Shown here: positions 3,717 to 23,595 of the stretch, piece by piece
Position numbering within the stretch: the stretch's first letter is position 1
How the letters are laid out: each line of letters starts with the position of its first letter
Assembly: GCA_028706895.1 (NCBI GenBank)
Contig: JAQTVG010000001.1
Location: 1 to 24,157 of the forward strand
Source of the DNA: Candidatus Omnitrophota bacterium
GTDB taxonomy: Bacteria > Omnitrophota > Gorgyraeia > Gygaellales > Profunditerraquicolaceae
DNA length: 24,157 nucleotides
Direction: 5' to 3'
The notes under the pieces: generated by a model
The model's input: only the letters and a program-made list of their open reading frames with translations
Databases searched by the model: none
Told to the model about the DNA's origin: nothing
Position numbers and translations under genes: made by a program

Positions 3717-5090
3717 ATGAAAACCAAAACAGTATTCTCTTGCCAAAGTTGCGGCTACCAGTCTCCCAAGTGGTTAGGCAGATGCCCTGATTGTAACAGC
3801 TGGAATTCTTTCGTGGAAGAAGATTATTCCGCGCCTTCGTCAAAAACAAAAGAAAGAAAAGCCCTCTATAAAGATGAGCCGGTTTTATTAAGGGATGTAG
3901 AGGTCAAGGAGGAAAACAGGCTTAAGACCGGGATATCAGAATTAGACAGGGTATTAGGCGGCGGCATAGTTGAGGGGTGCGTGGTATTAATCGGCGGAGA
4001 CCCCGGCGTCGGTAAATCTACGGTATCTTTACAGGTTTCTAACCAATTAACAGGACAGGGGCATACTGTTCTTTATGTCAGCGGTGAAGAGTCTGTTTCT
4101 CAGACAAAGTTAAGGGCGCATAGGCTCGGCGCCGGCAAAGACGGCAATCTTTATATAGTAAATCAGACGGACTTGTCTTTAATCATTGAGTATATAAAGA
4201 AAATCAAGCCCGATGTAGTAATTATTGATTCTATACAGGTAATATTTGAGCCTTCAATAAGCTCTTCACCCGGGAGTGTCAGCCAGGTAAGGGAATGCGC
4301 CGGCATATTGACGCAACTGGCAAAGACTTCAGGGGCATCTATTTTTATTATCGGCCATGTGACTAAAGAAGGGGCTATCGCGGGCCCCCGCGTTTTAGAA
4401 CATATCGTAGATACCGTGCTTTATTTTGAAGGAGACAGGTTCTCAATATACAGGATACTGCGCGCGGTAAAAAATAGGTTCGGCTCAACCAACGAAATCG
4501 GCGTATTTGAGATGACTTCGGGCGGCTTAAAAGAAGTAAAGAACCCGTCAGAAATATTTTTATCGGAGAAGCCGCATGATGTTTCCGGCTCGGTAGTGGT
4601 ATCTATTTTAGAAGGAAGCCGGCCGCTTCTGGTTGAAGTCCAGTCGCTTTTAAGCAGCTCGAGCTTTGGTTACGCGCGCCGGCGCGCGCAGGGGTTTGAT
4701 TATAACCGCCTTAGTTTGCTGGTCGCTGTTTTAGAAAAAAGAATAGGTTTACGCCTTGAGGCAGAGGATATATTTGTTAATGTAGCCGGAGGCATAAAAA
4801 TAGAGGATCCGGCGGCTGATTTAGGGGTAGCTGTAGCAATAGCTTCGGCTTTCCGCGGCCAGATTGCACTTGCCGAGGCGGTATTCCTTGGTGAAATTGG
4901 TTTAGCGGGTGAAATCAGGAGTGTATCGCAGGTAGGCTTACGCATAAATGAAGCGGCAAAATTAGGTTTTAAACATTGTATTCTTCCAAAGAATAACCTT
5001 AAGAACTTAGATTATAAAAAAGAAGGTATAGAATTAATTCCTGTTTCTACATTAAAAGAGGCATTAGATATTTCTATAGCTAAATCTTAA
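3717..5090 (+). CDS. radA: DNA repair protein RadA/Sms
   Basis: C4 zinc finger (CQSC...CPDC), Walker A GGDPGVGKST, RadA signature KNRFG and Lon-like C-terminal domain. Confidence 0.96.
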   Translation: MKTKTVFSCQSCGYQSPKWLGRCPDCNSWNSFVEEDYSAPSSKTKERKALYKDEPVLLRDVEVKEENRLKTGISELDRVLGGGIVEGCVVLIGGDPGVGKSTVSLQVSNQLTGQGHTVLYVSGEESVSQTKLRAHRLGAGKDGNLYIVNQTDLSLIIEYIKKIKPDVVIIDSIQVIFEPSISSSPGSVSQVRECAGILTQLAKTSGASIFIIGHVTKEGAIAGPRVLEHIVDTVLYFEGDRFSIYRILRAVKNRFGSTNEIGVFEMTSGGLKEVKNPSEIFLSEKPHDVSGSVVVSILEGSRPLLVEVQSLLSSSSFGYARRRAQGFDYNRLSLLVAVLEKRIGLRLEAEDIFVNVAGGIKIEDPAADLGVAVAIASAFRGQIALAEAVFLGEIGLAGEIRSVSQVGLRINEAAKLGFKHCILPKNNLKNLDYKKEGIELIPVSTLKEALDISIAKS

Positions 5091-5121
5091 CACCGTTTAT
5101 AGTTATTAATAAGGAATGGTG

Positions 5122-5185
5122 TAAATCGCAGACGCTTCGCTACAACTTATGTTGCTTACGCTTCCATAAGTTGTCTGCTCATTTA
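5122..5185. repeat. Intergenic bulged hairpin immediately upstream of the PIN/TRAM ribosome-binding site
   Basis: TAAAT(5122-5126)/ATTTA(5181-5185), GCAGAC(5128-5133)/GTCTGC(5173-5178) and AACTTATG(5144-5151)/CATAAGTT(5165-5172) are inverted pairs. The bulge reads GCTTCGCTAC and the loop TTGCTTACGCTTC. SD AAGGAGG is at 5185-5191. Confidence 0.7.
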
Positions 5186-5198
5186 AGGAGGTAAATAT

Positions 5199-6179
5199 AT
5201 GAACCTATTAGCAGTCCGTCTTCTTTTTATTATTGCCAGCGCCCTTGTCGGTTTTATGGCGATGGAGCCCAGAGGCTTGGGTATTGTGGGCGCGCTTTCA
5301 GGAGTTATTGTCAGCGGCGTTATCATACTTGCCGAGATGGGGATGCGCCGCGTATCTACGCGCGGCCTATCCAGCACCGTATTCGGGCTTATCCTCGGGT
5401 TAATTATGGCCAAGCTTGTCAGCGAAGCATTAACCCTGGCGCCTTTATCCAGTTCAGGATTATCGGTAGCAAAAGTTGTAGTTACGTTGATATTTTGTTA
5501 TTTGGGTATGGTTATAGGTTTGCGCGGAAAAGACGAGTTTAATATTATTATCCCTTATGTGCGCTTGCGCCGGCAGGACCAGTCGGCAGAGCTGACACTG
5601 GTTGATACCAGCGCCGTTATTGACGGCAGGATATTGGATATCTCTAAAACAAGATTTCTTGAAAACAAGCTTGTCATTCCTAAATTTGTTTTAAAAGAAT
5701 TACAGCAGATAGCGGATTCAACAGACCCTATCAAACGCCAGAGAGGGCGCAGGGGCCTGGAGATTTTGCATACGCTTCAGAAAGAGATGGGACAGGATAT
5801 AATGCTGCATGAAGAAGAGCTGCCTGATATCCCGGAAGTGGACGCGAAATTAGTAAAGCTCGCCAAGATATTAGAGGCAAAGATAATGACGGTAGATTTT
5901 AATTTAAACCGCGTCGCCAGCCTCCAGGGCATAAAAGTGCTTAATATTAATGAGCTCGCCAATGCCTTAAAGCCGATGGTTTTTCCCGGAGAAGAGATGC
6001 ACATTAAATTGCTCAAGGAAGGCAAAGAGCATAACCAGGCAATTGGCTACCTTGAGGACGGGACAATGGTCGTCGTAGAAGACGCGCGCAGGTTAATCGG
6101 CCAGGAGGTAAAAGTTGCGGTCACTTCGGTTTTACAGACCCAGGCAGGCCGTATGATTTTTACCAAAATTGAGAGATAA
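5199..6179 (+). CDS. Membrane-anchored PIN/TRAM domain protein (YacL family)
   Basis: About four N-terminal TM helices, PIN motifs [20 protein letters not shown] and RGRRGLEIL, and a C-terminal TRAM domain ([12 protein letters not shown]...[12 protein letters not shown]). Strong SD; the radA-yacL-ispD context is conserved. Confidence 0.9.
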
Positions 6180-8069: not shown

Positions 8070-9509
8070 ATGCCTATTTCCATATACAATTCCCTCACCC
8101 GAAAGAAAGAAGAATTTGTTCCTCTAAAACCGCCTGCGGTAAATATGTATGTGTGCGGGCCGACGGTTTATGATGAGCCGCATATCGGCCATGCCAGGAG
8201 CGCCTATATATTTGATGTAATACGCAGGTATCTTATATGCAGGGGCTATAAAGTAAAATTTGTCAGGAATGTTACCGACGTAGATGACAAGATTATTGAT
8301 AAGGCAAAAAAAGAATTCCCTGGTAAAGATTTGCTCAGCGCGGTCAAAGAAGTATCTAATAAATATCTCGATGCTTATCACGAAGATATGAAGCAGCTGG
8401 GTATTACGGCTCCTGACGTAGAGCCTAAGGCAACCGAGTTTATAAGCAAAGACAATCCTTCAATGCAGAAATTTATAACGCAGCTTATAGAACGGGGCGC
8501 GGCTTACGTCTCCGGAGGCGATGTGTATTTTGATATTAAAAAAGCGAAAAATTACGGAAAGCTATCAAACCAGTCTTTGGATAAAATGGAAGCAGGCGCA
8601 AGGGTTTTGGCTGGTGAGAATAAAAAAGACCCGTTAGATTTTGCTTTATGGAAAGCAGCAAAAGAAGGCGAGCCCGCCTGGGATAGCCCGTGGGGCAAGG
8701 GGAGGCCTGGCTGGCACATAGAGTGCTCCGTAATGAGCTCGGATATACTCGGAAAAGAATTTGATATCCACGGCGGAGGCATAGATTTAATATTCCCTCA
8801 CCACGAAAACGAAATCGCGCAGTCAGAAGGCGCCGGCAATACTTTTGCCAAATATTGGATTCACCACGGCCTTTTGACCATCAACAGCCAGAAGATGGCC
8901 AAGTCGCTTGGTAATTTCATTACGATAAAAGGTTTTATAAATAAATATAAATATCCGGACTTATTAAAATTATTTTTTCTCTCTACTCACTATGCTCATC
9001 CTATAGATTATACTGAAGAGAAAATTGAAGAAGCTAAAAAGGAATATGAGCGCATTGATATTCTAATGAGAAAATTAGATAGAGTATTTGGGACTAGGGA
9101 TATAAGTAAAACGACTACTGGAGGAATGGGTGATATAGGAAAATTTAAAGAAAAGTTTATTGAATATATGGACGATGATTTTAATACTCCGCGGGCATTA
9201 TCAGTTTTATTTGATATGATAAGTAGATGTAATATAGAATTGGATAGCGAAGACGAGTATAAGAATTTTAAATTGCGCTATGCTATGGATATAATAAAAG
9301 AAATAGCGGATATTTTCGGTTTAACTTTTCTTAAAGAGACGTCAACCGAAATGTCGGATACAAAAGTCACAGTTGCTATAGCTATGCGGGAACAATTAAG
9401 AAAAGAAAAGAAATTTAAGGAAGCTGACGAAATCAGAAGAGCGTTGGAAGAAAAAGGCGTTATTCTAGAAGATACAAAAAACGGCGTAACTTGGCGTCGT
9501 AAGTTATAA
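8070..9509 (+). CDS. cysS: Cysteine--tRNA ligase
   Basis: YVCGPTVYD, HIGH, DFALWK, WDSPWGKGRPGWHIECS, HGGGIDLIFPHHENE, KMAKSLGN and DDFNTPRA motifs. Confidence 0.97.
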   Translation: MPISIYNSLTRKKEEFVPLKPPAVNMYVCGPTVYDEPHIGHARSAYIFDVIRRYLICRGYKVKFVRNVTDVDDKIIDKAKKEFPGKDLLSAVKEVSNKYLDAYHEDMKQLGITAPDVEPKATEFISKDNPSMQKFITQLIERGAAYVSGGDVYFDIKKAKNYGKLSNQSLDKMEAGARVLAGENKKDPLDFALWKAAKEGEPAWDSPWGKGRPGWHIECSVMSSDILGKEFDIHGGGIDLIFPHHENEIAQSEGAGNTFAKYWIHHGLLTINSQKMAKSLGNFITIKGFINKYKYPDLLKLFFLSTHYAHPIDYTEEKIEEAKKEYERIDILMRKLDRVFGTRDISKTTTGGMGDIGKFKEKFIEYMDDDFNTPRALSVLFDMISRCNIELDSEDEYKNFKLRYAMDIIKEIADIFGLTFLKETSTEMSDTKVTVAIAMREQLRKEKKFKEADEIRRALEEKGVILEDTKNGVTWRRKL

Positions 9510-9511
9510 TA

Positions 9512-9679
9512 TTTAGCGGATGGCTTGGCTTGATTCACGCAGCATGTAGTTTATGCGAGCGGCCAGGGTTCACCTGCTAAGACGAAGTCGGTGAGAGCGA
9601 GCATAAACTCCAAGCGAGATTTTCCTCGGCGGGGAAAATCGAGCGGTGCTGCGGGAAGCAAGACAAGGCAACCGCTAAA
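9512..9679 (+). repeat. ~165-bp structured dispersed element, copy 1 (MITE-like element or ncRNA, unresolved)
   Basis: Closing stem 9516-9544 pairs with 9647-9675 (24/29 WC), extended by TTTA/TAAA. Inner 9-bp stem AGTTTATGC(9548-9556)/GCATAAACT(9601-9609) and hairpin GATTTTCC(9618-9625)/GGAAAATC(9633-9640). About 82% identical to the reverse complement of 23416-23574. Confidence 0.9.
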
Positions 9680-9692
9680 ATAGGCACAAATT

Positions 9693-10313
9693 ATGCAAGG
9701 AAAATTCATTACATTTGAGGGTTCCGAAGGCTGCGGCAAGAGCACACAGTCAAAACTCCTTTACCGCTATCTAAAAGGTAAGGGGCTTAAAGCAGTTTAT
9801 CTGCGCGAGCCGGGCGGCAACAAGATAAGCGAAAAGATACGCAAGATTTTATTAGACCACAGGAACGATTCTATAACTCCGGTAACCGAGACGCTCTTAT
9901 ATATGGCAGCGCGCGCCCAGGTAGTAGATGAAATCATAGCTCCGGCTTTAAAACAGGGGAAAATAATCGTCTGCGACAGGTTTATGGACTCTACTATTGC
10001 TTACCAGGGTTACGGGTTAGGGATAGATATCAATCTTATTAAATGCGTCGGGAAATTTGCCACCTCCGGCATAAAACCCGATTTTACCATATTTTTGGAT
10101 TTACCTCTTAGAAAGGGGCTTAGATACCGCCAATATACAAAAGACCGTATAGAAAGGCGCTCTCTTAATTATCATTCGCGTGTTTTAAAAGGATATCTTG
10201 AGCTCGCTCATAAAGACCCCAAGAGGATAAAAATCGTAAAAGTAGAGAAGGATATAGATAAGACACAGTCTGAAATAAGAAAATTAGTGGATAAATTGCT
10301 ATGTCATTCTTAG
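9693..10313 (+). CDS. tmk: Thymidylate kinase
   Basis: FITFEGSEGCGKST P-loop, REPGG and CDRFMDSTIAYQGYG motifs. Confidence 0.96.
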   Translation: MQGKFITFEGSEGCGKSTQSKLLYRYLKGKGLKAVYLREPGGNKISEKIRKILLDHRNDSITPVTETLLYMAARAQVVDEIIAPALKQGKIIVCDRFMDSTIAYQGYGLGIDINLIKCVGKFATSGIKPDFTIFLDLPLRKGLRYRQYTKDRIERRSLNYHSRVLKGYLELAHKDPKRIKIVKVEKDIDKTQSEIRKLVDKLLCHS

Positions 10314-17143: not shown

Positions 17144-18039
17144 CGCTGTTAAAAGATATCGGGGAATTCGGCTTGATTAGCAGGATAAGAAAATCAATAA
17201 AGACCGATGCCTCGGTTATAAAAGGTTCAGGCGATGATTGCGCGGTTTTAAAACTTGACAAAAACAGGTATCAGCTTTTTACCTGCGATATGATAGCAGA
17301 GGGAGTAGATTTTACGCTTAAAGATGGCCCGTATCTTATCGGTAGAAAGGCTTTGGCGGTTTCTATCAGTGATATTGCCGCTTGCGCAGGCCTGCCGCGT
17401 TATTGTGTTGTATCTCTGGGTATATCTAAACATACCCCGGTTAAATTTATAGATAAACTTCTTAAAGGTATTTTAACTATAGCCAAGAAATATAATGTTA
17501 ACCTTGTAGGCGGTGATATCAGCCGCGCAAAACAATTAACCATTGATGTGAGCATGCTGGGCGTTGTGGAGAAAAAGAATCTTGTATTAAGAAGCGGAGC
17601 CAGGGTGGGAGACGTTATTTTTGTTACGGGTAAACTCGGAGGCTCTATTCTGGGCAAGCACCTTAGCTTTACGCCGCGTTTAAAAGAAGCAAGGTTTTTG
17701 ACAAAGAATTTTAAGATAAATTCAATGATTGACATATCTGACGGCCTCACTCAGGACCTCGGTCATATCCTTGAAGAGAGCGAAAAAGGCGCGGTGATTT
17801 ACGCAGATTTAATCCCGGTAAGCAGGCAGGCACGTAACTTGAATGACGCGCTTTCTGCGGGCGAAGACTTTGAACTGCTTTTTACGATGCCTTTTAAAGA
17901 GGCAAAGAGGTTCCATAAGCGGGAGCTGCCCGGTTTTAAGGTTATCGGAGAAATCGTAGATAAGAAATATGGTTTCAGGTTGGTGGATAAACATGGTAAA
18001 GAAGAAGCTGTTAAGGCAAAAGGTTTCCGCCACTTTTAG
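17140..18039 (+). CDS. thiL: Thiamine-monophosphate kinase
   Basis: GEFGLI, GDDCAV, SISDIAA, GGDIS, IDISDGL and GEDFELLF motifs. Confidence 0.93.
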   Translation: MTLLKDIGEFGLISRIRKSIKTDASVIKGSGDDCAVLKLDKNRYQLFTCDMIAEGVDFTLKDGPYLIGRKALAVSISDIAACAGLPRYCVVSLGISKHTPVKFIDKLLKGILTIAKKYNVNLVGGDISRAKQLTIDVSMLGVVEKKNLVLRSGARVGDVIFVTGKLGGSILGKHLSFTPRLKEARFLTKNFKINSMIDISDGLTQDLGHILEESEKGAVIYADLIPVSRQARNLNDALSAGEDFELLFTMPFKEAKRFHKRELPGFKVIGEIVDKKYGFRLVDKHGKEEAVKAKGFRHF

Positions 18040-18122
18040 GGACGGTTCTCATTTACGGTTAAAAGTGTCCCTTTTAAATCGTAACGGGGACAGTTTTAAC
18101 CGTGTTTCAGAACCGTCCCTAA
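18036..18122. repeat. 87-bp REP/REPIN-like nested palindrome
   Basis: Perfect 14-bp terminal inverted repeat TTAGGGACGGTTCT(18036-18049)/AGAACCGTCCCTAA(18109-18122). Inner arms ACGGTTAAAA-G-TGTCCC(18055-18071) and GGGACA-G-TTTTAACCGT(18087-18103). Confidence 0.85.
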
Positions 18123-18128
18123 TGTAGA

Positions 18129-18599
18129 ATGAAAATAATTTCTAAATCAGCTAACGACACTTTAAATATAGGCAAGGCAATAGCAAAAAGCCTGCGAAAG
18201 GCAGATATCATCTGCTTATTCGGTGAGCTAGGTTCGGGTAAGACCGTATTAACTAAGGGCATTGCTTCGGGGCTTGGAATTAAAAAAAACAAAGTTATAA
18301 GCCCGTCATTTGTCCTAATTCGCCAATATGATTCAGCTAGGATACCGTTTTACCATTTTGACCTTTATAGATTAGATACGCCGGAAGATATCCTTGCTTT
18401 AGGATACGAAGAATATCTCTATGATGACGGAGTGACCGTAATTGAATGGGCAGATAGATTAAAATATATCCTGCCGAAGGAATATTTAAAGATAAGCTTG
18501 CGCGTTGACTCTACTTTAGGCAGGTCGCTTGAATTTAGCGCGTTCGGTAAACGCTATAAAGAACTCTTGGGTGAAATCTATGAAAATCTTAGGCATTGA
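18129..18599 (+). CDS. tsaE: tRNA threonylcarbamoyladenosine biosynthesis ATPase TsaE
   Basis: GELGSGKT P-loop, SPSF, HFDLYRL and IEWAD motifs. Confidence 0.94.
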   Translation: MKIISKSANDTLNIGKAIAKSLRKADIICLFGELGSGKTVLTKGIASGLGIKKNKVISPSFVLIRQYDSARIPFYHFDLYRLDTPEDILALGYEEYLYDDGVTVIEWADRLKYILPKEYLKISLRVDSTLGRSLEFSAFGKRYKELLGEIYENLRH

Positions 18600-23410: not shown

Positions 23411-23574
23411 TTTTAGCGGCTGCCAAGGCTGTTTTCTCCCAGCACCGCTCGATTTTCCCCACCGTGGAAAATCTCGCTTGGATTTTCTGCTCGCTCTCAC
23501 TGATATCCTGATAGCGGGTGAACCTGGCCGCTCGCATAAACTACATGCTGTCCGAAAACAGCCTTGCCATCCGC
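23411..23574 (-). repeat. ~165-bp structured dispersed element, copy 2 (inverted relative to copy 1)
   Basis: The reverse complement aligns to 9516-9680 with one gap. Closing stem 23416-23444 pairs with 23546-23574 (24/29 WC), with compensatory changes relative to copy 1. Confidence 0.9.
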
Positions 23575-23595
23575 GAACAAACATCCCAAATTCGC

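What the first reader, a model, noticed from the sequence alone, without database searches (positions are those of the whole stretch)
23411..23574. Strand-specific signature of the element: all stem mismatches are purine-purine, with RAGCG motifs at the junctions
Seen: on the strand matching copy 1 (+), the closing-stem mismatches are A.A, G.G, G.A, A.G, A.G in copy 1 and A.G, G.G, G.A, G.G, A.G in copy 2. The changes that break inner stems in copy 2 also give G.A, A.G and A.G. All 13 are purine-purine. RAGCG occurs four times at or next to helix junctions (9557, 9595, 9612, 9641) and is unchanged in copy 2, while an 11-nt segment (9580-9590) is about half diverged. Inference: one strand is the functional fold, with tolerated G.A-type pairs and sequence-specific junctions that could be protein recognition sites. 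Both copies also point toward the nearest downstream gene (tmk, comF), though n=2.
Basis: partly seen in the sequence, partly recalled or inferred. Interest (0 to 1): 0.7.

Follow-up and report, generated by a model that had tools for sequence, protein, structure and literature searches.

The report
Purine-paired, strand-specific hairpin repeat of Omnitrophota
The two look-alike stretches belong to a 170-base repeat family found across the Omnitrophota, and nearly all imperfections in its stems are purine-purine pairs on one strand, which shows that one single strand folds and is under selection, although whether that strand works as DNA or RNA is still open.

Summary
I aligned 154 full copies from 56 genomes of the same family. 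At normally paired stem positions, sporadic mismatches are purine-purine 239 times and pyrimidine-pyrimidine 26 times. G.U outnumbers A.C 332 to 94. The purine strand folds more stably than its complement in 151-152 of 154 copies, under both RNA and DNA parameters. The pattern also holds in 29 copies from other Omnitrophota families and in a second, unrelated hairpin repeat.

The four RAGCG motifs are the two strands of two copies of one module: a tandem G.A pair in a Y-GA-R context, then G-C and C-G, then a single G.A. A bulge-loop tertiary pair also covaries.

The claim that copies point at the downstream gene fails: 52 copies are sense and 53 antisense to co-directional neighbours. I found no conserved promoter, no general target duplication, and no link to Y1/RAYT genes.

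This scan had already noted the same element family, on this window and on other genomes.

The parts
9512..9679 (+). Copy 1 of the ~170-nt element. The purine strand is the + strand. It lies between the cysS stop (9507-9509) and the tmk start (9693).
   Evidence: CM R1 scores 190.9 bits on + and 59 bits on -. RNA MFE is -76.6 on + and -64.5 kcal/mol on -.
23412..23578 (-). Copy 2. The purine strand is the - strand. It lies in the divergent spacer between comF (-) and a pilin gene (+).
   Evidence: CM score 167.2 bits on -. About 82% identity to copy 1 in BLAST. MFE is -68.5 on - and -60.1 on +. Coordinate map.
9512..9544 (+). P1 5' arm of the closing stem. Single purine-purine mismatches occur about every 5 bp (9520, 9523, 9528, 9533, 9537). 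The arm shows a pentamer rhythm, GCTTG.
   Evidence: Pair table. Sites 13.164, 16.161, 21.156, 26.151 and 30.147 are R.R or Watson-Crick, and almost never Y.Y.
9647..9679 (+). P1 3' arm, with pentamer rhythm CAAGR. Mismatch partners lie at 9671, 9668, 9663, 9658 and 9654.
9545..9612 (+). P2 arm: covarying helix P2a, G.A module, 7-nt bulge, helix P2b and a variable loop. It contains the conserved Y.Y exception U.C at 9547.9610.
   Evidence: Compensatory changes in RNAalifold and the pair table. U.C in 121 and U.U in 25 of 154 copies.
9557..9561 (+). GAGCG (RAGCG no. 1), the 5' strand of the P2 module. It pairs with AGCGA at 9596-9600.
   Evidence: G.A and A.G in 147/154, G-C in 143, C-G in 147, G.A in 152/154. 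Kept in 25/29 copies from other families.
9595..9600 (+). GAGCGA (RAGCG no. 2), the 3' strand of the P2 module. G9595 also forms the conserved U.G wobble with U9569.
   Evidence: U.G in 142/154.
9562..9568 (+). Conserved 7-nt bulge G-N-C-A-N-G-G. 9562-9564 are candidate tertiary partners of the P3 loop.
   Evidence: G55, C57, A58, G60 and G61 are invariant or nearly so. Residue 56 covaries with residue 122: G-C 95, C-G 54 of 154. In other families: 24 G-C, 3 C-G.
9575..9589 (+). Variable terminal loop of P2.
   Evidence: Low conservation and indels. 5/11 identical between the two copies.
9613..9645 (+). P3 hairpin. AGCGA (9613-9617) pairs with GAGCG (9641-9645, RAGCG no. 4). RAGCG no. 3 starts at 9612. 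Then comes a covarying 8-bp helix and the loop 9628-9631.
   Evidence: A.G at 106.138 in 153/154 copies and 29/29 in other families. Tandem G.A/A.G in 138/110 of 154. Helix pairs covary.
23446..23533 (-). Core of copy 2, holding the four unchanged RAGCG motifs (23529-23533, 23492-23496, 23475-23479, 23446-23450).

Best explanation
The element is a dispersed, structured hairpin repeat. Its selected form is a fold of one single strand, the purine-rich one.

The fold has:
- a long closing stem (P1);
- a three-way junction;
- two arms (P2 and P3);
- probably a 3-bp bulge-loop tertiary contact.

Purine-purine oppositions are structural parts of this fold, not decay. Three tandem G.A/A.G pairs sit in the Y-GA-R context, which from general knowledge of nucleic-acid structure favours sheared pairs. 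Two of them lie within the repeated 5'-GAGCG/3'-AGCGA module, which accounts for the four RAGCG motifs. In this bacterial family there are also single R.R pairs about every 5 bp along P1.

R.R pairs stack inside a helix, while their complements (C.T, C.C, T.T) do not. The same positions therefore keep the purine-strand hairpin stable and weaken the complementary hairpin: by 11 kcal/mol with RNA parameters and 7 kcal/mol with DNA parameters. This is inferred to act as a strand-choice device and to limit cruciform formation. The invariant GAGCG modules are inferred to be docking sites for a protein or for tertiary contacts.

The signature does not depend on the direction in which neighbouring genes are transcribed. 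The fold therefore serves the element's own biology, not the host mRNA.

My odds:
- Strand-specific selected fold: about 0.9.
- The folded strand is handled as single-stranded DNA by a strand-specific enzyme, following REP/IS200/attC-like logic with unknown machinery: about 0.5.
- It is handled as RNA: about 0.35.

Shown: the fold, its covariation, the R.R excess, motif conservation and orientation independence. Inferred: the strand-choice role, protein docking and the type of molecule.
For: - Covarying structure: 30 of 44 RNAalifold pairs carry compensatory changes.
- Pair table on 154 copies from 56 genomes.
- Sporadic mismatches: R.R 239 against Y.Y 26. G.U 332 against A.C 94.
- Alignment-free count: R.R 882 against Y.Y 88.
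- The purine strand is more stable in 151/154 copies with RNA parameters and 152/154 with DNA parameters.
- RAGCG is kept in 122-135 of 154 copies.
- Y-GA-R context on both strands: 141/154 in P2, 93/154 in P3, 88/154 in P1.
- Out-of-family test set of 29 copies: R.R 237 against Y.Y 40, with 26 of the 40 at the U.Y site; P2 module kept in 27/29.
- An unrelated hairpin family B shows 73 R.R against 1 Y.Y on its own strand.
- Orientation: 52 sense against 53 antisense. Antisense copies are at least as well paired, with 50.1 against 48.4 Watson-Crick pairs.
- No position-specific promoter or terminator signal; information content is at most 0.23 bit.
The cysS-tmk site is filled in G000, G004, G005 and G006 but empty in G001 and G003.
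- Precedent: E. coli TnpA-REP acts on folded single-stranded REP and not on the inverse strand. Its conserved stem mismatches are required for activity (PMC8266576, read).
Against: Against the DNA reading:
- None of 12 Y1/RAYT loci in 4 genomes is flanked by the element.
- Y1 genes show no association with element presence. Y1 genes occur in 125/151 genomes and the element in 115/151.
- A three-way junction with a tertiary pair, a conserved U.G wobble and sheared G.A pairs is typical of functional RNAs. Known folded-ssDNA sites are simpler.
- Copies on one contig have mixed orientation, unlike the lagging-strand bias of IS200/IS605.

Against in-situ selection: the R.R bias could have been filtered in master copies only. 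Orthologous copies are about as conserved as their coding flanks, not clearly more so.
Confidence: 0.55

Rival explanations
1. The element works as a structured RNA. The purine strand is transcribed, by read-through or from a few master loci. It folds into the three-way junction, and the tandem sheared G.A modules and the bulge-loop contact form a protein-binding or possibly catalytic core. The many copies are dispersed gene or pseudogene copies.
For: - RNA-like architecture: compensatory covariation in P2 and P3.
- Conserved U.G wobble in 142/154 copies.
- G.U exceeds A.C.
- Three Y-GA-R tandem G.A motifs.
- Covarying tertiary pair 56-122. These are the only unpaired positions that distinguish the two subfamilies, and they are complementary in both.
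- Found in many families of the phylum (58 of 151 sampled genomes), with a conserved core.
- No transposase link was found.
Against: - 52 sense against 53 antisense relative to co-directional neighbours.
- No conserved promoter or terminator.
- Some copies are wedged 3 nt after a stop codon and 13 nt before a start codon.
- Head-to-head doublets leave only about 25 nt for two promoters.
- Antisense copies are as intact as sense copies.
- No Rfam family matches.
- A reverse transcriptase was found in only 1 of 5 copy-rich genomes, so retro-dispersal is unlikely.
Confidence: 0.35
2. The element is an ordinary MITE moved as double-stranded DNA by a DDE transposase. On this view the closing stem is just a pair of terminal inverted repeats and the fold is incidental.
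For: - Long terminal inverted arms.
- Insertion polymorphism at cysS-tmk.
- A direct duplication of about 14 nt (GTAGGAARTTATRR) flanks the G005 copy at that site.
Against: - The internal helices P2 and P3 covary.
- Differences between the arms are systematically R.R on one strand. A symmetric dsDNA-binding transposase gives no reason for this.
- There is no general target-site duplication: best flank matches are close to shuffled controls.
- The single duplication lies at a stop/start overlap, where only an insertion that duplicated the overlap could survive.
Confidence: 0.05
3. The purine-purine excess is a by-product of base composition or of strand-biased mutation (for example C to A), and is not under selection.
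For: The element is 57% purine. Many R.R pairs differ from G-C by a single C-to-A change.
Against: - Composition predicts a ratio of about 1.8, not 9 or more.
- The R.R sites are position-specific and conserved across 56 genomes and into other families. The R.R type turns over at a site (G.A, A.G, G.G, A.A) without Y.Y appearing.
- The G.U excess would need damage on the opposite strand from the one needed for C to A.
- One Y.Y site is itself conserved.
- Orientation is random with respect to transcription, and copies on one contig have mixed orientation. Neither process could therefore give a consistent strand bias.
Confidence: 0.03

Closest known systems
REP / BIME / REPIN elements with RAYT (TnpA-REP, Y1 HUH) enzymes
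   Same: - Dispersed intergenic imperfect palindromes in many copies.
- The enzyme reads the folded single strand and rejects the inverse strand.
- Conserved stem mismatches are needed for activity (PMC8266576; PMC3116915).
- Inverted pairs are common.
- RAYT-like genes are plentiful in these genomes.
   Different: - About 170 nt with a three-way junction, not a simple hairpin of roughly 20-40 nt.
- No GTAG-type tag at the 5' foot.
- Not found next to any of 12 RAYT loci.
- No association with RAYT presence.
- Doublet partners are only 54-62% identical and so are not REPIN-like hairpins.
- The RAYT genes of this genome are instead flanked by other short repeats, such as GGGGACGTTTC.
IS200/IS605 ends and their non-autonomous derivatives (PATEs); integron attC sites
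   Same: These are strand-specific recombination substrates made of folded single-stranded DNA, in which unpaired or mismatched bases decide which strand is used (established knowledge; summarised in PMC8266576).
   Different: - No adjacent TnpA or IntI.
- No RYYYAAC/GTTRRRY ends.
- No visible lagging-strand orientation rule.
- A much more elaborate fold.
- Asymmetry comes from stacked purine pairs, not from extrahelical bases.
Structured MITE-like repeats such as Correia/NEMIS, ERIC, RUP, bcr1 and EFAR (named from my own knowledge)
   Same: Intergenic repeats of 100-170 nt with long terminal inverted arms that fold as hairpins. They are inserted in either orientation.
   Different: As far as I know, those families show target duplications and no reported one-strand purine-pair rule, conserved tandem-G.A modules or tertiary pair. 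Here, conservation extends across many families of the phylum.
RNA tandem sheared G.A motifs / kink-turns
   Same: Tandem G.A/A.G pairs flanked by C-G in a Y-GA-R context. The motifs are invariant while neighbouring helices covary.
   Different: No 3-nt bulge lies directly next to the tandem G.A on the required strand, so this is not a kink-turn. The module is symmetric: G.A, A.G, G-C, C-G, G.A.

Membership tests
REP/REPIN-RAYT system | Short (about 20-40 nt) imperfect palindrome with a conserved 5' tetranucleotide (GTAG/CGTC) | tested here: not met
   The element is about 170 nt with a three-way junction. The 5' foot reads TTTAGCGG, with no conserved tag upstream.
REP/REPIN-RAYT system | Copies flank the cognate RAYT gene (REPtron) | tested here: not met
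   No CM hit at E<=0.01 in 74 kb around 12 Y1/RAYT genes in G000, G082, G043 and G104.
REP/REPIN-RAYT system | Element presence goes with RAYT presence | tested here: not met
   At least 17 of 26 genomes without Y1 carry the element, against 92-98 of 125 genomes with Y1. G046 (94% complete, 12 copies) and G106 (93% complete, 9 copies) have no Y1 hit.
REP/REPIN-RAYT system | REPIN: two near-identical inverted REPs that together form one hairpin | tested here: not met
   Doublet partners are 54-62% identical, less alike than they are to other copies in the same genome.
REP/REPIN-RAYT system | Only one strand's fold is the substrate, and stem irregularities are required | tested here: met
   One-strand signature. 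The biochemical requirement itself cannot be tested here.
IS200/IS605-type single-strand transposon end | No target duplication, Y1 transposase, insertion biased to one replication strand | tested here: inconclusive
   No general duplication. Y1 is not associated. Orientation is mixed within contigs. Flank GC skew is dominated by coding strand, with a residual of -0.011.
DDE-type MITE | Fixed-length target-site duplication and a related autonomous IS | tested here: not met
   Best flank repeats are close to the shuffled control (k=10, 8 or more matches: 31% against 19%). Only one clear duplication of about 14 nt, at cysS-tmk. No autonomous relative was looked for beyond Y1 and RT.
Integron attC | R''/L''...L'/R' boxes (RYYYAAC...GTTRRRY), arrays in one orientation next to intI | tested here: not met
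   The ends read TTTAGCGG...CCGCTAAA. Pairs are inverted, not tandem. intI was not searched for.
Any Rfam RNA family | Match to a curated covariance model | tested here: not met
   No hit at gathering thresholds over the whole window. Over the element at E<=10, only a 9-bit chance hit.
Kink-turn | Canonical stem, 3-nt bulge, then tandem G.A/A.G on the bulged strand | tested here: not met
   Tandem G.A pairs are flanked by Watson-Crick pairs on both sides. The 7-nt bulge lies on the other side of the module, 3' of the single G.A.

The most novel reading that the evidence does not exclude
Omnitrophota carry a set of elaborate single-strand folds (family A, family B and probably more). All are built on one design rule: stacked purine-purine pairs, including tandem sheared G.A modules, mark the active strand. 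An unknown strand-specific machinery unrelated to RAYT reads them, or the fold is a new class of functional, possibly catalytic, RNA carried by a mobile element. Head-to-head pairs of these folds would then define slots where small accessory genes are exchanged.
Probability: 0.3. Interest if true: 0.8.

Novelty: new variant of a known kind. Interest (0 to 1): 0.62.

Why it matters
- It identifies the active strand of an uncatalogued repeat family found across the Omnitrophota, from sequence alone and with very strong statistics. It also gives a simple diagnostic, R.R against Y.Y mismatches, that can be applied to other palindromic repeats.
- It turns four 'motifs' into one defined structural module, and it predicts a tertiary contact. 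Both can be tested directly by probing or by structure determination.
- The orientation independence narrows the possible functions. A role as a cis-acting element of host mRNAs is very unlikely.
- If the machinery is new, this would be a new way of handling folded single strands in a phylum with almost no experimental genetics.

Tried and rejected
- **Rfam:** no family matched.
- **RAYT/Y1 as the partner enzyme:** present in the genomes, but not adjacent to the element and not associated with it.
- **Reverse transcriptase:** found in 1 of 5 copy-rich genomes.
- **Upstream promoter or downstream terminator:** no positional signal.
- **General target-site duplication:** not above control.
- **Precise empty sites:** filled sites in other genomes compared with G000 were too diverged to define insertion points, except at cysS-tmk. 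The comF upstream region has lost synteny in sister genomes.
- **Flank GC skew as a replication-strand proxy:** swamped by coding-strand composition.
- **Strain-level variants through exact protein look-up (tmk, pilin):** none on record.
- **A common gene inside head-to-head slots that could be the mobilising enzyme:** the slot genes are unrelated to one another.
- **RNA against DNA energy parameters as a discriminator:** both favour the purine strand.
- **Literature:** no paper on such a repeat in Omnitrophota and nothing on purine-purine rules in bacterial repeats.
- **The two other palindromes in the window (5088-5200, 18034-18130):** they gave no clear purine asymmetry.

Full report
**What is there.** The window comes from an Omnitrophota MAG. 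The closest CysRS relatives are Candidatus Omnitrophota MAGs. The assembly has 1.31 Mb in 236 contigs, 42% GC and 80% completeness. Window 9512-9679 (+) and 23412-23578 (-) are two copies of a ~170-nt repeat, about 82% identical in BLAST.
- The MAG holds about 10 full and a few partial copies.
- A covariance model built from 24 copies finds the element in 115 of 151 genomes of the same family, about 730 matches.
- It also finds the element in 58 of 151 genomes sampled across the phylum, in many families.
- Rfam has no match.
- Earlier notes of this scan describe the same family, on this window and on other genomes.

**The fold.** RNAalifold and my hand-curated structure agree.
- P1 is a long closing stem.
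- A three-way junction follows.
- P2 consists of helix P2a, an internal module, a conserved 7-nt bulge (G-N-C-A-N-G-G), helix P2b and a variable loop.
- P3 consists of a module, an 8-bp helix and a 4-nt loop.
- P2a, P2b and P3 carry many double compensatory changes: 30 of 44 predicted pairs (full table).
- Residue 56 in the bulge and residue 122 in the P3 loop are G-C in 95 copies and C-G in 54 of 154. They are the only unpaired positions that distinguish the two main subfamilies. Their neighbours, C57-G121 and G55-Y123, are also compatible with pairing. In other families the pair is G-C 24 times and C-G 3 times.
- I read this as a candidate 3-bp bulge-loop tertiary contact. It may rest on a single ancestral double change, so support is moderate.

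**Check of the observation.** The mismatch lists, the RAGCG coordinates and the half-diverged loop segment are all correct. Two mismatches were missed: a U.C near the base of P2 in both copies (9547.9610) and a C.T near the outer end of copy 2's stem. The first is a conserved feature of the family, with U.C in 121 and U.U in 25 of 154 copies.

**The larger copy set.** I fetched 150 loci and aligned 154 full copies from 56 genomes to the model.

| Measure | Purine strand | Contrast |
|---|---|---|
| Sporadic mismatches at 49 sites that are at least 80% paired | R.R 239 | Y.Y 26 |
| Same, collapsed to one per site, type and genome | R.R 193 | Y.Y 25 |
| Wobble against its complement | G.U 332 | A.C 94 |
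| 17 recurrent mismatch sites | R.R 1518 | Y.Y 163 (160 at the U.C site and its neighbour) |
| Alignment-free count on each copy's own MFE fold | R.R 882 | Y.Y 88 |
| Same count on the complementary strand | R.R 78 | Y.Y 672 |

- The purine strand is more stable than its complement in 151/154 copies with RNA parameters (mean difference 11.1 kcal/mol) and in 152/154 with DNA parameters (6.8 kcal/mol).
- Under strand-symmetric mutation, R.R and Y.Y should arise equally often. The 57% purine content predicts a ratio of only about 1.8.
- An independent test set of 29 copies from other families gives R.R 237 against Y.Y 40, with 26 of the 40 at the U.Y site.
- Kinship among copies inflates the p-values. 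However, the effect is seen in every helix, in both subfamilies and in distant families.

**What RAGCG is.** GAGCG at 9557 pairs with AGCGA at 9596-9600. AGCGA at 9613-9617 pairs with GAGCG at 9641. Each pairing forms G.A, A.G, G-C, C-G, G.A.
- The four motifs are thus two copies of one module. The single G.A end abuts a bulge or the junction, and the tandem end abuts a regular helix.
- The tandem pairs lie in 5'-CGAG-3'/5'-CGAG-3'. From general knowledge of nucleic-acid structure, this Y-GA-R context favours sheared tandem G.A pairs in both RNA and DNA.
- Both strands show that context in 141/154 copies (P2) and 93/154 (P3). A third tandem G.A lies in P1 in 88/154 copies. Copy 1 has A.G plus C-G at that place.
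- Full RAGCG is kept in 122-135 of 154 copies.
- Across other families the P2 module (27/29) and the A.G at the base of P3 (29/29) remain. The P3 tandem pair is often replaced by Watson-Crick pairs, and the single mismatches every ~5 bp in P1 are mostly paired.
- The deep, conserved features are therefore the P2 module, the P3 base pair, the bulge and the loop. The P1 rhythm (GCTTG/CAAGR pentamers) is specific to this family.

**Orientation and context.**
- With ORF-based neighbour calls, checked by the sign flip of flank GC skew, copies lie sense to co-directional genes 52 times and antisense 53 times. They lie in divergent spacers 19 times and in convergent spacers 9 times.
- The downstream gene is co-oriented in 77 cases and not in 68, so the 'points at the downstream gene' idea fails.
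- Antisense copies are as well paired as sense copies.
- There is no positional promoter or terminator signal.
- The 3' end lies closer to the next gene (median about 25 nt) than the 5' end does (about 96 nt). This is partly because a partner element often sits on the 5' side.
- When two copies lie within 3.5 kb, their 5' ends face each other in 17 cases, never the reverse, and they share orientation in 2 cases. Partners are only 54-62% identical.
- Slots between such pairs hold unrelated orphan genes, an ORF6N gene and a zeta-toxin-like gene.

**A second family.** A distinct ~215-nt hairpin repeat, family B, lies 5'-adjacent to and inverted relative to several copies. It has the same signature on its own strand: 73 R.R against 1 Y.Y, and it is more stable by up to 25 kcal/mol in 11 of its 12 copies. 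The purine-pair rule is therefore a class property here.

**Mobility and machinery.**
- The cysS-tmk junction is filled in G000, G004, G005 and G006. It is empty in G001 and G003, where the stop and start codons overlap.
- In G005 a direct duplication of about 14 nt spanning that overlap flanks the element. No general target duplication is seen across the copy set.
- Orthologous copies are about as conserved as their mostly coding flanks: 62-93% against 66-95%.
- Y1/RAYT-like genes are common: 4 in this MAG and present in 125/151 genomes. None of 12 such loci is flanked by the element, and their presence is unrelated to its presence.
- In this MAG the RAYT genes are flanked by other short repeats.
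- Reverse transcriptase is rare.

**Interpretation.**
- *Shown:* one strand's fold is under selection, purine-purine pairs are part of it, the RAGCG modules are conserved, and none of this depends on host transcription direction.
- *Inferred:* the purine pairs stabilise one hairpin while weakening its complement. That would give a strand-specific enzyme its cue and would limit cruciform formation. The closest documented logic is TnpA-REP acting on folded single-stranded REP but not on the inverse strand, with conserved stem mismatches required (PMC8266576).
- *RNA or single-stranded DNA:* this stays open.
  - Orientation independence, the absence of promoters, insertion polymorphism and inverted pairing favour DNA.
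  - The three-way junction, tertiary pair, U.G wobble and absence of any transposase link favour RNA.
  - I put DNA at about 0.5 and RNA at about 0.35.

**Verdict.** Its main interpretation is supported and sharpened, and its side remark on gene direction is refuted. The element family is uncatalogued in Rfam, and I found no paper on it. This scan had already noted the family. The strand signature, the module reading of RAGCG, the tertiary pair and the shared rule in family B add to what those short notes record.

Noticed in passing
L003:1683-1900 (G000 contig C147:4692-4913); also G000 C98, C103, C160 and C164: A second, unrelated ~215-nt hairpin repeat (family B, TTTTGCTGCGGG...CAGCAAAA). 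It often lies 10-25 nt from the 5' end of family A in inverted sense, and it shows its own purine-purine mismatch signature (73 R.R against 1 Y.Y).
   Followed up: partly
L008, L055, L075, L095, L109, L115, L117 (adjacent pairs); L057, L061, L067, L021, L060, L085, L092, L093 (slots): Pairs of copies always have their 5' ends facing each other (17 cases, none reversed). Partners belong to different subfamilies (54-62% identity). Slots of 0.6-3.2 kb between them hold unrelated orphan genes, an ORF6N gene (L105:924-1430, in a same-orientation pair), a zeta-toxin-like gene (L029:341-916, also in a same-orientation pair) and a DUF6941 gene.
   Followed up: partly
window 9495-9515 and 9680-9700; L014 (G005), L176 (G003), L177 (G001): The cysS-tmk junction is an insertion polymorphism within the genus. 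In the empty alleles the cysS stop overlaps the tmk start (ATGA). In the filled allele of G005, a direct duplication of about 14 nt spanning that overlap flanks the element and restores both genes.
   Followed up: partly
G000 contigs C22:1867-2388, C189:3158-3853, C201:14434-15378, C15:158-850: This 1.3-Mb MAG has four RAYT-like (REP-associated tyrosine transposase) paralogues. The C22 gene is flanked by a 22-bp inverted repeat. The C189 and C15 genes are flanked by GGGGACGTTTC-type or GGGACAGCG-type motifs resembling the REPIN-like doublet at window 18036-18122.
   Followed up: partly
window 9563 and 9629 (copy 2: 23527 and 23462): Candidate tertiary base pair between the P2 bulge and the P3 loop. 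It is G-C in one subfamily and C-G in the other, 149/154 Watson-Crick, with compatible neighbours on both sides.
   Followed up: partly
window 9547.9610 (copy 2: 23543.23481): A conserved pyrimidine-pyrimidine opposition (U.C or U.U in 146/154 copies and in 26/29 copies from other families) two pairs above the three-way junction. It is the one systematic exception to the purine rule and is probably a specific structural feature.
   Followed up: partly
L057:694-877 against L061:1126-1305: At one orthologous site the flanks are 87-96% identical between two genomes, but the element copies are only 64% identical. This suggests replacement or re-insertion at the same place, not vertical descent.
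   Followed up: no
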